DNA from: an uncultured Candidatus Saccharibacteria bacterium
Lineage (GTDB): Bacteria; Patescibacteriota; Saccharimonadia; Saccharimonadales; CAIOMD01
Direction of reading: 5' to 3'
Length of the DNA stretch: 64,000 nt
Assembly: GCA_964566135.1 (NCBI GenBank)
Contig: CAZMHM010000005.1
Span: forward strand, 7,995 to 71,994
In this document: piece after piece, positions 48,048-48,455 of the stretch
Numbering within the stretch: the stretch's first letter is position 1
Layout of the letters: each line of letters begins with the position of its first letter
Program-made: the position numbers and the translations under genes
Notes under the pieces: generated by a model
Seen by the model: only the letters and a program-made list of their open reading frames with translations
Databases searched by the model: none
What the model was told of the DNA's origin: nothing

Positions 48048-48455
48048 TTAACGCGTTGCTTTTTTGAGGCGGCGACGTTCGCGCTCGGACAAGCCACCCC
48101 ATATGCCGAACCGTTCATCTTTATCGAGCGCATATTCAAGACAATCGACCCTAACATCGCACGTGGTGCAAACGCGCTTTGCTTCGCGCGTACTTCCACC
48201 CTTTTCAGGAAAGAACGCTTCTGGGTCGGTTTGTGCACAGAGTGCTTGCTCGTGCCATGCAAGTACTTCTGGCTCAAGCAAATCAAGTATCGTAGTCCTT
48301 GTTTCAGAATCGTCTTCTTGGGCAGCAGCAGCGGCTCGTTCCCGCTGTTGCCTATATTGCTCGTTGAGCCGTGCAACTTCCTCGGCAGTTGGCTTATCTG
48401 CATTACCAGTTGCGGTTGTAGGAGTATACGGTTGCTGCTTGGTACTATCGGGCAA
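48048..48455 (-). CDS. whiB: WhiB-like (Wbl) iron-sulfur transcription factor
   Basis: Four Cys in the Wbl pattern (ALCAQ...[11 protein letters not shown]), the GIWGG turn and the basic tail [11 protein letters not shown]. An N-terminal extension of about 70 aa precedes them. Confidence 0.85.
   Translation of the reverse strand: [135 protein letters not shown]

What the first reader, a model, noticed from the sequence alone, without database searches (positions are those of the whole stretch)
48048..48455. WhiB-like Fe-S transcription factor in a non-actinobacterial-looking genome
The 135-aa product has the full Wbl signature. It carries four Cys in the pattern C-Xn-C-X2-C-X5-C (ALCAQ...[11 protein letters not shown]), the GIWGG turn that contacts sigma region 4, and a basic tail ([11 protein letters not shown]).

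Wbl proteins are regarded as restricted to Actinobacteria and their phages. Unlike the 12 to 15 kb island, this gene has native-like composition, so if it was acquired the event is old.

It sits between a 500-aa acidic protein with an HTH-like segment and polA. Together with the GC island and the crt genes, it fits long-term gene flow from actinobacterial hosts. Alternatively it points to a deeper relationship.
Basis: partly seen in the sequence, partly recalled or inferred. Interest (0 to 1): 0.6.

Follow-up and report, generated by a model that had tools for sequence, protein, structure and literature searches.

The report
WhiB regulator conserved in Saccharibacteria
A gene for an iron-sulfur transcription factor (WhiB) that the literature treats as exclusive to Actinobacteria and their phages is intact in a Saccharibacteria (ultrasmall epibiont) genome, where it is always paired with an unknown partner gene, although the organism's main sigma factor lacks the usual WhiB docking residues.

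Summary
ORF 48048..48455 (-) encodes a 135-aa protein that scores 92.9 bits on Pfam Whib (cut-off 23.6). It has four Cys (C73/C96/C99/C105), all four aromatic-patch residues, GIWGG and a basic tail. Its AF2 model matches Streptomyces WhiB (8dy9_H, TM 0.83), and its core is 81% identical to that protein, so it is WhiB/WhiB2-type.

The genome is Saccharibacteria: the nearest PolA and RpoD sequences are all Saccharimonadales MAGs.

The gene is native-looking (GC3 0.43 vs 0.43 for polA; sampled actinobacterial whiB2 0.55-0.98). It belongs to a conserved module, PG_binding_4 gene, 'acid500', whiB, polA. The acid500 family has only 6 representatives among 1.84 billion proteins, and each is followed directly by a Wbl gene. 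I therefore read this as an old acquisition from Actinobacteria, the host phylum of cultivated Saccharibacteria, kept under selection.

One point cuts against the canonical mechanism. The sigma region-4 His-Pro pair, required for Wbl binding in the pairs tested, reads K-H-K in this RpoD and in all 120 nearest RpoDs. Canonical docking is thus unproven, and the partner protein or a rewired interface may be involved.

No paper found reports Wbl in Saccharibacteria. Verdict: a new variant of a known kind, of moderate to high interest.

The parts
48048..48455 (-). whiB gene, 135 aa, WhiB/WhiB2-subfamily Wbl protein (stop codon 48048-48050)
   Evidence: ORF. Pfam Whib 92.9 bits. phmmer against PDB: 8dy9_H WhiB, 130 bits. 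AF2 pLDDT 82, and Foldseek 8dy9_H TMt 0.83.
48066..48257 (-). Wbl domain (aa 67-130): Cys 73/96/99/105; aromatic patch W67, F81, F82, W119; GIWGG 117-121. The basic tail RERRRLKK follows.
   Evidence: Pfam envelope. Invariant columns in alignments A2 and A3. Residue positions.
48258..48455 (-). N-terminal extension (aa 1-66), absent from typical 85-90 aa actinobacterial WhiB2. A helix is predicted at aa 24-56.
   Evidence: AF2 helix 24-56 with pLDDT 94-96 over aa 21-40. The motif [KR]PT.EEV..LN is shared with the L037 orthologue: tblastn spans aa 21-132. The exact start codon is not proven.
48464..49966 (-). 'acid500': 500-aa acidic protein (pI 4.6) of unknown function, the conserved upstream partner of whiB. 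Its stop lies 8 nt before the whiB start.
   Evidence: No Pfam, NCBIfam or PHROG hit. Only 6 family representatives in 1.84e9 proteins, and every one is followed by a Wbl gene. A weak sigma-region-4-like HTH hint: 3vep_D SigD, E 0.38, not significant.
45360..47906 (-). polA (DNA polymerase I), the conserved downstream neighbour and the taxonomic anchor
   Evidence: Pfam DNA_pol_A and 5'-3' exonuclease domains. Nearest relatives are Saccharibacteria MAGs.
50035..51294 (-). PG_binding_4-domain protein (419 aa), the conserved upstream flank of the module
   Evidence: Pfam PF12229. Homologues lie upstream of polA in most Saccharibacteria loci, with or without whiB.
60245..61357 (-). rpoD (primary sigma). 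The C-terminal tail reads ...[17 protein letters not shown]358-H359-K360 (nt 60278..60286) stands where other bacteria have His-Pro-Ser, the Wbl docking site.
   Evidence: phmmer alignments to Firmicute SigA, which reads KLRHPSRSK. The tail is identical in type in all 120 nearest RpoDs. H516A, H516F and P517A each abolish WhiB1 binding (PMC6954389). HrdA and HrdD lack HPS and do not bind WhiB (PMC10243135).

Best explanation
**What it is.** The ORF is a genuine, intact WhiB/WhiB2-type [4Fe-4S] Wbl transcription factor encoded in the chromosome of a Saccharibacteria (Patescibacteria/CPR) bacterium.

**Origin (inferred).** It was acquired horizontally from Actinobacteria, the phylum that hosts cultivated Saccharibacteria. 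The acquisition was long enough ago for its codon composition to match the recipient and for it to become fixed in a clade-specific module: PG_binding_4 gene, acid500, whiB, polA.

**Probable mechanism.**
- C73, C96, C99 and C105 hold a [4Fe-4S] cluster inside a pocket lined by W67, F81, F82 and W119. The sequence and fold are shown; cluster binding is inferred.
- The cluster-loaded protein joins the transcription machinery, and its basic C-terminal tail touches DNA upstream of promoters (inferred from S. venezuelae WhiB).
- Transcription would thereby respond to redox, NO or Fe-S status.
- The co-transcribed acid500 protein is most likely its obligatory partner, a role analogous to WhiA. This is inferred from strict co-occurrence only.

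**Open point.** It is unknown whether the pocket still docks on sigma region 4, because this lineage's RpoD has K-H-K in place of the His-Pro-Ser docking motif.
For: **Family membership**
- Pfam Whib scores 92.9 bits against a cut-off of 23.6.
- The core is 81% identical over 72 aa to the structurally characterised S. venezuelae WhiB, at 130 bits versus 59 or less for other Wbl subfamilies.
- AF2 gives pLDDT 82, and Foldseek's top PDB hits are all Wbl structures, led by 8dy9_H at TMt 0.83.
- All Cys and aromatic-patch residues are present.

**Host identity**
- The nearest PolA sequences are 21 Saccharibacteria MAGs at 50-84% identity.
- The nearest RpoD sequences are named Saccharimonadales, Saccharibacteria or Patescibacteria.
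- The window carries a type IV pilus cluster and other Saccharibacteria-typical content.

**Not an artefact**
- An independent Logan assembly reproduces the locus.
- The same gene order appears in L003, L034, L036, L037/L038, L039 and L040, which come from different samples.

**Age and selection**
- whiB GC3 is 0.426, polA 0.433. Sampled actinobacterial whiB2 genes have GC3 0.55-0.98, in loci with GC 0.56-0.76.
- Orthologues persist in genomes whose PolA is only 75-84% identical.

**Partner gene**
- The acid500 family has 6 representatives in 1.84e9 proteins, and all 6 lie 8-62 nt upstream of a Wbl gene.

**Donor direction**
- Real actinobacterial top hits carry the canonical whiB2 context: cofD/fbiC upstream, then whiB, GT2 and DUF5719.
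- Wbl genes are patchy in Saccharibacteria, at 4 of 21 GTDB polA loci.
- Cultivated Saccharibacteria grow on Actinobacteria (PMC10633639 abstract).
Against: - **Sigma docking site:** The His-Pro pair in sigma region 4 is required for binding by every Wbl tested in the papers read (PMC6954389, PMC13013590, PMC10243135). In this RpoD and in all 120 nearest RpoDs it reads K-H-K.
- **No WhiA seen:** No WhiA gene lies in the 64-kb window, and the rest of the genome could not be read.
- **Fe-S machinery:** Fe-S assembly genes were not seen in the window.
- **Relaxed constraint:** One orthologue (L037) has GIAGG, losing the fourth aromatic-patch Trp, and is only 52% identical. Constraints are therefore looser than in Actinobacteria.
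- **Phylogeny unresolved:** The 69-aa core tree recovers Saccharibacteria monophyly in only 4 of 100 bootstraps. A single transfer is argued from synteny, not from the tree.
- **acid500 unknown:** It has no significant homology to anything known, and its structure prediction failed (pLDDT 39).
- **Start codon:** The TTG start and the N-terminal extension are not experimentally defined.
Confidence: 0.65

Rival explanations
1. **Rewired, sigma-independent Wbl.** The protein keeps the Fe-S pocket but no longer docks on the primary sigma factor. Its functional partner would be acid500 (or another protein), or it would act as a redox protein or thiol reductase rather than a classical sigma-bound activator.
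For: - RpoD lacks the His-Pro pair across the whole clade.
- Single H516A, H516F or P517A changes abolish binding in M. tuberculosis.
- acid500 and whiB co-occur strictly and are probably translationally coupled, with an 8-nt gap.
- L037 has lost the aromatic-patch Trp.
Against: - The aromatic patch and basic DNA tail remain fully conserved in 6 of 7 Saccharibacteria WhiB2-type proteins.
- A His is still present one position later in the sigma tail (K-H-K) and could occupy the pocket.
- No interaction data exist.
- acid500 shows no conserved His-Pro-like motif.
Confidence: 0.2
2. **Host-directed mimic.** Like actinophage WhiB proteins, the epibiont's WhiB2 look-alike would be aimed at the actinobacterial host's sigma-A/WhiA machinery, to disturb host septation or redox responses, rather than at its own RNAP.
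For: - The core is 77-91% identical to actinobacterial WhiB2, while the epibiont's own sigma lacks the docking motif.
- Cultivated Saccharibacteria live on Actinobacteria.
- Phage-borne WhiB families are common: the protein hits 12 PHROG families.
- A type IV pilus cluster is present in the window.
Against: - The N-terminus has no signal peptide, Tat motif or hydrophobic segment (sequence).
- No route is known for delivering an Fe-S protein into a host.
- The gene sits in a housekeeping context next to polA.
- The actual host of this environmental lineage is unknown.
Confidence: 0.05
3. **Artefact.** The gene would sit on a chimeric or misbinned contig, or the genome would really be a low-GC actinobacterium.
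For: - One RpoD cluster 91% identical to the window's carries an NCBI label 'Actinomycetota bacterium' (P0156).
- Low-GC Actinobacteria exist (own knowledge).
Against: - The same acid500-whiB-polA junctions are recovered in independent assemblies from several samples.
- GC3 is native.
- Flanking PolA and RpoD cluster with Saccharibacteria, and the next-best PolA matches are Firmicutes, not Actinobacteria.
- The canonical actinobacterial whiB2 synteny is absent.
Confidence: 0.02
4. **Vertical inheritance or a deeper relationship.** Wbl proteins would be ancestral to a common ancestor of Saccharibacteria and Actinobacteria.
For: - Several divergent Wbl types occur at the same site upstream of polA in Saccharibacteria whose PolA is as little as 52% identical (L003a, L005, L017, L028).
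Against: - WhiB is about 80% identical to actinobacterial proteins, whereas RpoD's best PDB matches are Firmicute SigA (385 bits vs 314 for Mtb SigA) and the best non-Saccharibacteria PolA matches are Firmicutes at 33-45%.
- The distribution in Saccharibacteria is patchy.
- No WhiB or WhiA is mentioned in the Southlakia supplementary gene tables.
Confidence: 0.03
5. **Decaying relic.** The gene would be a leftover of a transfer with no current function.
For: - L037 is a divergent copy (52% identical, Trp lost).
- The closest GTDB relative (L017) lacks the acid500-whiB pair.
Against: - The reading frame is intact and all functional residues are present.
- 7 lineages retain the gene together with its partner gene, despite strong genome reduction in this phylum.
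Confidence: 0.05

Closest known systems
Streptomyces WhiB / Mycobacterium WhiB2 (WhmD) subfamily of Wbl proteins (PDB 8dy7, 8dy9)
   Same: - 81% identity over the 72-aa core.
- Identical Cys spacing, aromatic patch, GIWGG turn and RERRRLKK tail.
- The predicted fold superposes, with TMt 0.83.
   Different: - It is encoded in a Saccharibacteria chromosome.
- It carries a 66-aa N-terminal extension.
- Its context is acid500/polA rather than cofD-fbiC/GT2/DUF5719.
- The cognate sigma lacks His-Pro-Ser.
- No WhiA partner was seen in the window.
WhiA-WhiB dual activator system (PMC10243135)
   Same: A small Wbl protein is paired with a larger acidic/HTH-like protein, which could supply DNA specificity. 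This is an inferred analogy.
   Different: acid500 is not homologous to WhiA. It has no LAGLIDADG or WhiA Pfam hit, and its HTH hint is not significant (E 0.38). In Actinobacteria, as far as I recall, whiA and whiB are not adjacent (own knowledge).
Actinophage-encoded WhiB proteins (e.g. PHROG 472; mycobacteriophage TM4 WhiB, recalled from own knowledge)
   Same: A Wbl gene carried by a parasite of Actinobacteria rather than by an actinobacterium. The protein hits phage WhiB families at up to 99.9 bits.
   Different: Here the carrier is a cellular epibiont. The gene is chromosomal, syntenic across a clade and has native composition, and no phage genes flank it.
Other Wbl subfamilies (WhiB1, WhiB3, WhiB4, WhiB7)
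   Same: The same fold and the same Cys ligands.
   Different: They are much more distant, at 32-59 bits. The window protein has no AT-hook, which is the WhiB7 feature (own knowledge).

Membership tests
Wbl (WhiB-like) family, Pfam PF02467 | Profile HMM score above the curated threshold | tested here: met
   92.9 bits against 23.6, with full-length model match.
Wbl (WhiB-like) family, Pfam PF02467 | Four conserved Cys, C-Xn-C-X2-C-X5-C, that ligate a [4Fe-4S] cluster | tested here: met
   C73, C96, C99 and C105. C73, C96 and C99 are invariant and C105 at least 90% conserved in the 77-sequence alignment A3.
Wbl (WhiB-like) family, Pfam PF02467 | Gly-rich beta-turn G[V/I]WGG | tested here: met
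   GIWGG at 117-121.
Wbl (WhiB-like) family, Pfam PF02467 | Aromatic patch AP1-4 (WhiB1 W3, F17, F18, W60) as defined in PMC13013590 | tested here: met
   W67, F81, F82 and W119 align to these positions.
Wbl (WhiB-like) family, Pfam PF02467 | Helical Wbl fold around the cluster pocket | tested here: met
   AF2 pLDDT 82. The Foldseek PDB hits are all Wbl structures, with 9 hits at E<=2e-4 and TMt 0.68-0.83.
Wbl (WhiB-like) family, Pfam PF02467 | Actually binds an O2/NO-sensitive [4Fe-4S] cluster | not testable with these tools
   Needs purified protein and spectroscopy.
Wbl (WhiB-like) family, Pfam PF02467 | Docks on the His-Pro pair of the cognate primary sigma factor's region 4 | tested here: not met
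   The cognate RpoD reads KLRKHKDS where others read KLRHPSRS, and so do all 120 nearest RpoDs. A His is retained one position later, so binding is not excluded. This concerns the partner protein, not the sequence definition of the family.
Wbl (WhiB-like) family, Pfam PF02467 | Taxonomic restriction to Actinobacteria and actinophages, as stated in PMC6282962 and PMC13013590 | tested here: not met
   The host genome is Saccharibacteria. This is the point of the finding. It concerns the family's known range, not its biochemical definition.
WhiB/WhiB2 orthologous subfamily | Closest to WhiB/WhiB2 rather than to other Wbl subfamilies, with the conserved core [21 protein letters not shown]...[20 protein letters not shown] | tested here: met
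   130 bits to 8dy9_H against 59 or less to WhiB1/3/4/7. 77-91% core identity to actinobacterial WhiB2.
WhiB/WhiB2 orthologous subfamily | Works with WhiA, so a whiA gene should be present in the genome | not testable with these tools
   No WhiA domain was found in any window ORF of 150 aa or more that was scanned.
WhiB/WhiB2 orthologous subfamily | Actinobacterial whiB2 neighbourhood (cofD/fbiC upstream; GT2, DUF5719 downstream) | tested here: not met
   Actinobacterial loci L033, L035, L043 and L044 show this context. The window instead has acid500 and polA.

The most novel reading that the evidence does not exclude
Saccharibacteria would own a rewired Wbl system. An anciently captured WhiB2, fused to a lineage-specific N-terminal helix and strictly coupled to an orphan partner protein (acid500), would work without the canonical sigma His-Pro docking site. 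It would use the altered K-H-K sigma tail, the partner protein, or even the actinobacterial host's sigma factor. That would give an ultrasmall epibiont an Fe-S-based sensor of redox or NO that times its own (or its host's) division and DNA-replication genes.
Probability: 0.3. Interest if true: 0.8.

Novelty: new variant of a known kind. Interest (0 to 1): 0.62.

Why it matters
- **Range of the family.** Reviews and a 2026 structural survey still describe Wbl proteins as exclusive to Actinobacteria and actinophages (PMC6282962, PMC13013590). A conserved, syntenic WhiB2 orthologue in Saccharibacteria breaks that rule. It also points to durable gene flow from hosts to epibionts that involves a regulator, not just metabolic genes.
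- **A natural experiment on Wbl mechanism.** Here a near-canonical WhiB2 sits with a sigma factor that lacks the His-Pro pair, each residue of which was individually essential for WhiB1 binding in vitro, and with a new obligatory-looking partner. Testing this pair could show how plastic the Wbl-sigma interface is.
- **A practical caveat.** whiB is used as an 'actinoviral hallmark' for assigning hosts to viral contigs (10.1101/655167). Saccharibacteria carrying whiB weakens that inference, and may feed taxonomic mislabelling of MAGs.
- **Regulation in Patescibacteria.** These organisms have few known regulators, so a candidate redox-responsive transcription module next to polA is a concrete handle on how they control growth.

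Tried and rejected
- **Metagenome scans for acid500.** Two scans, one with the single protein and one with a 2-sequence alignment, found no relatives. The family was recovered only by the exhaustive HMMER search.
- **Identifying acid500.**
  - Pfam at E<=10, NCBIfam and PHROGs gave nothing.
  - The family profile against PDB gave only a non-significant SigD region-4 hit, E 0.38.
  - hhalign against an RpoD alignment gave probability 0.07%.
  - Single-sequence AF2 gave pLDDT 39 and is unusable.
  - I looked by eye for a conserved His-Pro-like motif that could mimic the sigma tail. None is conserved across the six members, so I dropped that idea.
- **Phylogeny.** An NJ tree of the 69-aa core, with 100 bootstraps, was unresolved: Saccharibacteria monophyly in 4 of 100. 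The comparison set was also biased towards best hits of the window protein.
- **WhiA.** I looked for it in the window by Pfam-scanning essentially all ORFs of 150 aa or more. None was found.
- **Extending beyond the window.** Look-ups of edge genes returned only contigs of 1.1-1.4 kb.
- **Signals around the gene.** The promoter/terminator scan around whiB gave counts at chance level. Rfam and tRNA scans of the window found nothing.
- **Literature.** No paper in the library links WhiB/Wbl to Saccharibacteria genomes. The supplementary tables of the Southlakia Tn-seq paper contain no WhiB or WhiA.
- **L017-type Wbl search.** The nearest relatives are only 60% identical and are actinobacterial WhiB2-context proteins. 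No large Saccharibacteria-specific Wbl family was demonstrated.
- **Low-GC donor idea.** I considered whether native-like GC could simply reflect a low-GC donor. The sampled nearest actinobacterial loci have GC 0.56-0.76. Lower-GC donors cannot be excluded, however.
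Full report
**1. Observation**

The ORF at 48048..48455 (minus strand, TTG start, 135 aa) is real. Against Pfam it matches only Whib (PF02467), with E 1.7e-26 and 92.9 bits against a gathering score of 23.6. The match covers the whole 65-position model at aa 67-130.

The four Cys sit at 73, 96, 99 and 105. The GIWGG turn is at 117-121 and the tail reads [11 protein letters not shown]. 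All four 'aromatic patch' residues that recent structural work defines as the sigma-binding and cluster-shielding motif (PMC13013590) are present: W67, F81, F82 and W119.

An AF2 model built on a 77-sequence alignment has mean pLDDT 82. Its best Foldseek matches in the PDB are exclusively Wbl structures, headed by S. venezuelae WhiB (8dy9_H, TMt 0.83, E 1e-8).

**2. Which Wbl**

phmmer against PDB sequences gives 130 bits to S. venezuelae WhiB (8dy9_H, 8dy7_H). WhiB4 scores 59, WhiB1 58, WhiB3 42 and WhiB7 32. Over the 72-aa core the protein is 81% identical to Streptomyces WhiB.

The 120 best hits among 5.8 billion proteins all share the WhiB/WhiB2 core ...[25 protein letters not shown].V...[26 protein letters not shown]. 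The protein therefore belongs to the WhiB/WhiB2 (WhmD) orthologous group, which in Actinobacteria controls cell division together with WhiA (PMC10243135).

It differs from the usual 85-90 aa proteins by a 66-aa N-terminal extension. AF2 predicts that extension to contain a long helix at aa 24-56.

**3. Whose genome**

- PolA (45360..47906) finds 21 Saccharibacteria/Saccharimonadales/Patescibacteria MAGs at 50-84% identity among 185,579 GTDB species genomes. The next tier is Ruminococcus/Oscillospiraceae at 36-45% and a Bacteroidales MAG at 33%.
- The named nearest RpoD sequences are Saccharimonadales, Saccharibacteria or Patescibacteria.
- The window also holds a type IV pilus cluster (172..7547), ftsK, RNase J, PNPase and dnaG-rpoD, with nearly all genes on one strand.

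The genome is not actinobacterial. The gene is not an assembly artefact either. An independent Logan assembly reproduces acid500-whiB-polA, and six further contigs from other samples show the same junctions (below).

**4. Neighbourhood and conservation**

Upstream of whiB, separated by 8 nt, lies a 500-aa acidic protein (pI 4.6) with no Pfam, NCBIfam or PHROG match. An exhaustive HMMER search of 1.84 billion representative proteins finds only six family members. Each one was traced to its contig, and every one is followed 8-62 nt downstream by a Wbl gene:

- the window itself;
- L003 (P0365 is identical to the L003 ORF);
- L036;
- L037/L038;
- L039;
- L040.

polA follows in the window, L003, L037 and L040. 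The PG_binding_4 gene precedes the pair in the window, L003, L036, L037 and L040. L034 (PolA 91.6% identical) has the same WhiB type directly upstream of polA.

The WhiB cores of these orthologues are 52-91% identical to the window protein, while PolA is 75-92% identical.

N-terminal extensions are present in all of them and share short motifs:

- [KR]PT.EEV..LN in the window and L037;
- YSGLP.Y in L003, L034 and L036.

The extension is therefore translated, although its exact start is unproven. The module is a stable, clade-specific two-gene unit.

Among the GTDB Saccharibacteria polA loci, four of 21 have a Wbl gene at this site. In the rest with enough upstream sequence, the PG_binding_4 gene abuts polA. 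The other Wbl genes at this site are of different types:

- L003a and L005 are nearest to WhiB1, at 53-54%.
- L017 is 52-60% identical to WhiB2-type proteins.
- L028 is divergent.

**5. Origin**

whiB has GC 0.52 and GC3 0.426. polA has GC3 0.433 and the window GC is 0.46. The closest genuinely actinobacterial homologues that I traced sit in loci of GC 0.56-0.76, with whiB GC3 0.55-0.98. They lie in the classical whiB2 context: cofD/fbiC upstream, then GT2 and DUF5719 downstream.

The argument for horizontal capture from Actinobacteria rests on three observations:

- WhiB is about 80% identical to actinobacterial proteins, while housekeeping proteins of the same genome are closest to Firmicutes outside their own phylum.
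- Wbl genes are patchy in Saccharibacteria.
- Cultivated Saccharibacteria are epibionts of Actinobacteria (PMC10633639).

The native codon composition and the deep synteny argue that the event is old.

A neighbour-joining analysis of the 69-aa core cannot resolve whether all Saccharibacteria copies form one clade (4 of 100 bootstraps). The protein is too short and too conserved for that. The single-origin inference rests on the shared partner gene and shared position.

**6. Mechanism**

By sequence and fold the protein should hold a [4Fe-4S] cluster and behave as a Wbl. In every structure solved, the cluster pocket docks on His516-Pro517 in the C-terminal tail of sigma-A region 4.

- H516A, H516F and P517A each abolish WhiB1 binding (PMC6954389).
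- H516A abolishes WhiB4 and WhiB6 binding, and WhiB5 binding is described as H516-dependent (PMC13013590).
- Streptomyces HrdA and HrdD, which lack the His-Pro-Ser motif, do not bind WhiB (PMC10243135).

They are not. The tail reads [16 protein letters not shown], whereas Firmicute SigA reads KLRHPSRSK in an ungapped alignment. All 120 nearest RpoD sequences (82-100% identical) read KLRKHK[DE] (one KLKKHKD).

A His is retained one position later, so docking is not excluded. It cannot be assumed either. The strict coupling with acid500 suggests that this protein is the functional partner. Its only similarity to anything known is a non-significant match (E 0.38) of a conserved YL.G.SD.EIA...AVQV.RS segment to the region-4 helix-turn-helix of M. 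tuberculosis SigD. hhalign against RpoD found nothing, and single-sequence AF2 failed.

No WhiA gene is in the window, and the rest of the genome could not be reached.

My best estimate is as follows. The protein is a functional Fe-S transcription factor acting on the epibiont's own transcription machinery together with acid500, with the sigma contact either retained through H359 or rewired.

Less likely is a host-directed mimic in the manner of actinophage WhiB proteins. No secretion signal is visible.

One orthologue (L037) has GIAGG in place of GIWGG. The interface is therefore under looser constraint than in Actinobacteria.

**7. Novelty**

Reviews and a 2026 survey of 995 Wbl sequences state that the family occurs exclusively in Actinobacteria and actinophages (PMC6282962, PMC13013590). 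Full-text searches combining WhiB/Wbl with Saccharibacteria, Patescibacteria, TM7 or CPR returned only papers about the actinobacterial host's own whiB or unrelated co-mentions. The supplementary tables of the Southlakia genetics paper contain no WhiB or WhiA.

The proteins themselves are already in public databases, unnamed or labelled 'hypothetical'. This is not a new protein family. It is a known family in an unreported phylum, with a new architecture (the N-terminal extension), a new obligatory-looking partner gene, and a cognate sigma factor that lacks the canonical docking pair.

I rate it a new variant of a known kind, with interest about 0.6.

**8. Caveats**

- The function, cluster binding, start codon and partner interactions are all inferred.
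- The donor lineage and the number of transfers are unresolved.
- The survey of Saccharibacteria is limited to loci anchored on polA or acid500.
- The literature search covers open-access papers and preprints only.

Noticed in passing
window 12125..15093 (minus strand): The GC island holds two genes with GC3 0.86 and 0.85, against about 0.40-0.43 elsewhere. One is a secreted 496-aa protein with no Pfam hit. The other is a 417-aa LPXTG (LPQTG) cell-wall-anchored protein. The long plus-strand ORF 12059..13639 is a shadow ORF. This looks like a recent import from a high-GC Gram-positive organism, in contrast with the ameliorated whiB.
   Followed up: partly
window 55534..59654 (minus strand); L037 319..1005: A carotenoid cluster sits in a Saccharibacteria genome: polyprenyl synthase, phytoene desaturase-like amine oxidase, phytoene synthase and lycopene cyclase. 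In L037 a lycopene cyclase lies directly upstream of the PG_binding_4-acid500-whiB-polA module. A Luna-1 Actinobacteria paper notes whiB close to crt clusters (PMC12422013). Co-transfer was not tested.
   Followed up: partly
window 60278..60286 (RpoD K358-H359-K360): The near-universal primary-sigma tail RHPSRS is RKHKD[SGA] (RKHKEA in 2) in this RpoD and in all 120 nearest Saccharibacteria RpoDs. This is a clade-wide change at the site contacted by Wbl proteins. I did not determine how far it extends across Saccharibacteria or CPR.
   Followed up: partly
L005 5090..5857; L039 2224..3009; L039 36..920: Saccharibacteria also encode long Wbl proteins. One roughly 250-260-aa type has a conserved N-terminal domain of about 180 aa (L005 against L039b: 39% identity over 241 aa). 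A separate 294-aa WhiB2-type protein has a long N-terminal region and a poly-acidic C-terminal tail. L039 carries Wbl genes on both sides of its acid500 homologue.
   Followed up: partly
L037 3758..4144: This orthologue of the window WhiB reads EYYGIAGG where others read ERFGIWGG. It has lost the fourth aromatic-patch Trp, which is invariant in the 77-sequence alignment A3.
   Followed up: no
L003 3704..3997 and 5626..5862; L017 5547..5870: L003 has two Wbl genes flanking acid500. The closest GTDB relative of the window by RpoD identity (L017's contig, RpoD 93% identical; PolA 71-84% by segment) has only a divergent Wbl and no acid500. The site upstream of polA therefore shows differential loss or replacement of Wbl genes.
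   Followed up: partly
protein cluster P0156 (RpoD, 91% identical to the window's); L030: NCBI labels a member of this RpoD cluster 'Actinomycetota bacterium'. A contig of the same length (45,246 bp), L030, is titled 'uncultured Candidatus Saccharibacteria bacterium'. This may be taxonomic mislabelling of Saccharibacteria MAGs as Actinobacteria, so 'Actinobacteria bacterium' names on MAG proteins should not be trusted blindly.
   Followed up: no
L035 11145..12363 compared with window 50035..51294: In an actinobacterial whiB2 locus, a PG_binding_4/YkuD protein lies a few genes downstream of whiB. In Saccharibacteria the module abuts a PG_binding_4 protein. This is probably coincidence, since that gene is present at the site with or without whiB. 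It was not examined.
   Followed up: no
window 1..64000: Almost all genes of 150 aa or more lie on the minus strand. There is no tRNA and no Rfam family hit in 64 kb. A type IV pilus cluster (pilin, PilC, PilT, PilB, PilO, PilN, PilM) occupies 172..7547.
   Followed up: no
L031 5001..5204; L032 4312..4515 (IMG/VR contigs): Two contigs classed as viral (GC about 0.57) encode WhiB2-type cores 82% identical to the window protein. Whether they are actinophages or misclassified cellular DNA was not checked.
   Followed up: no
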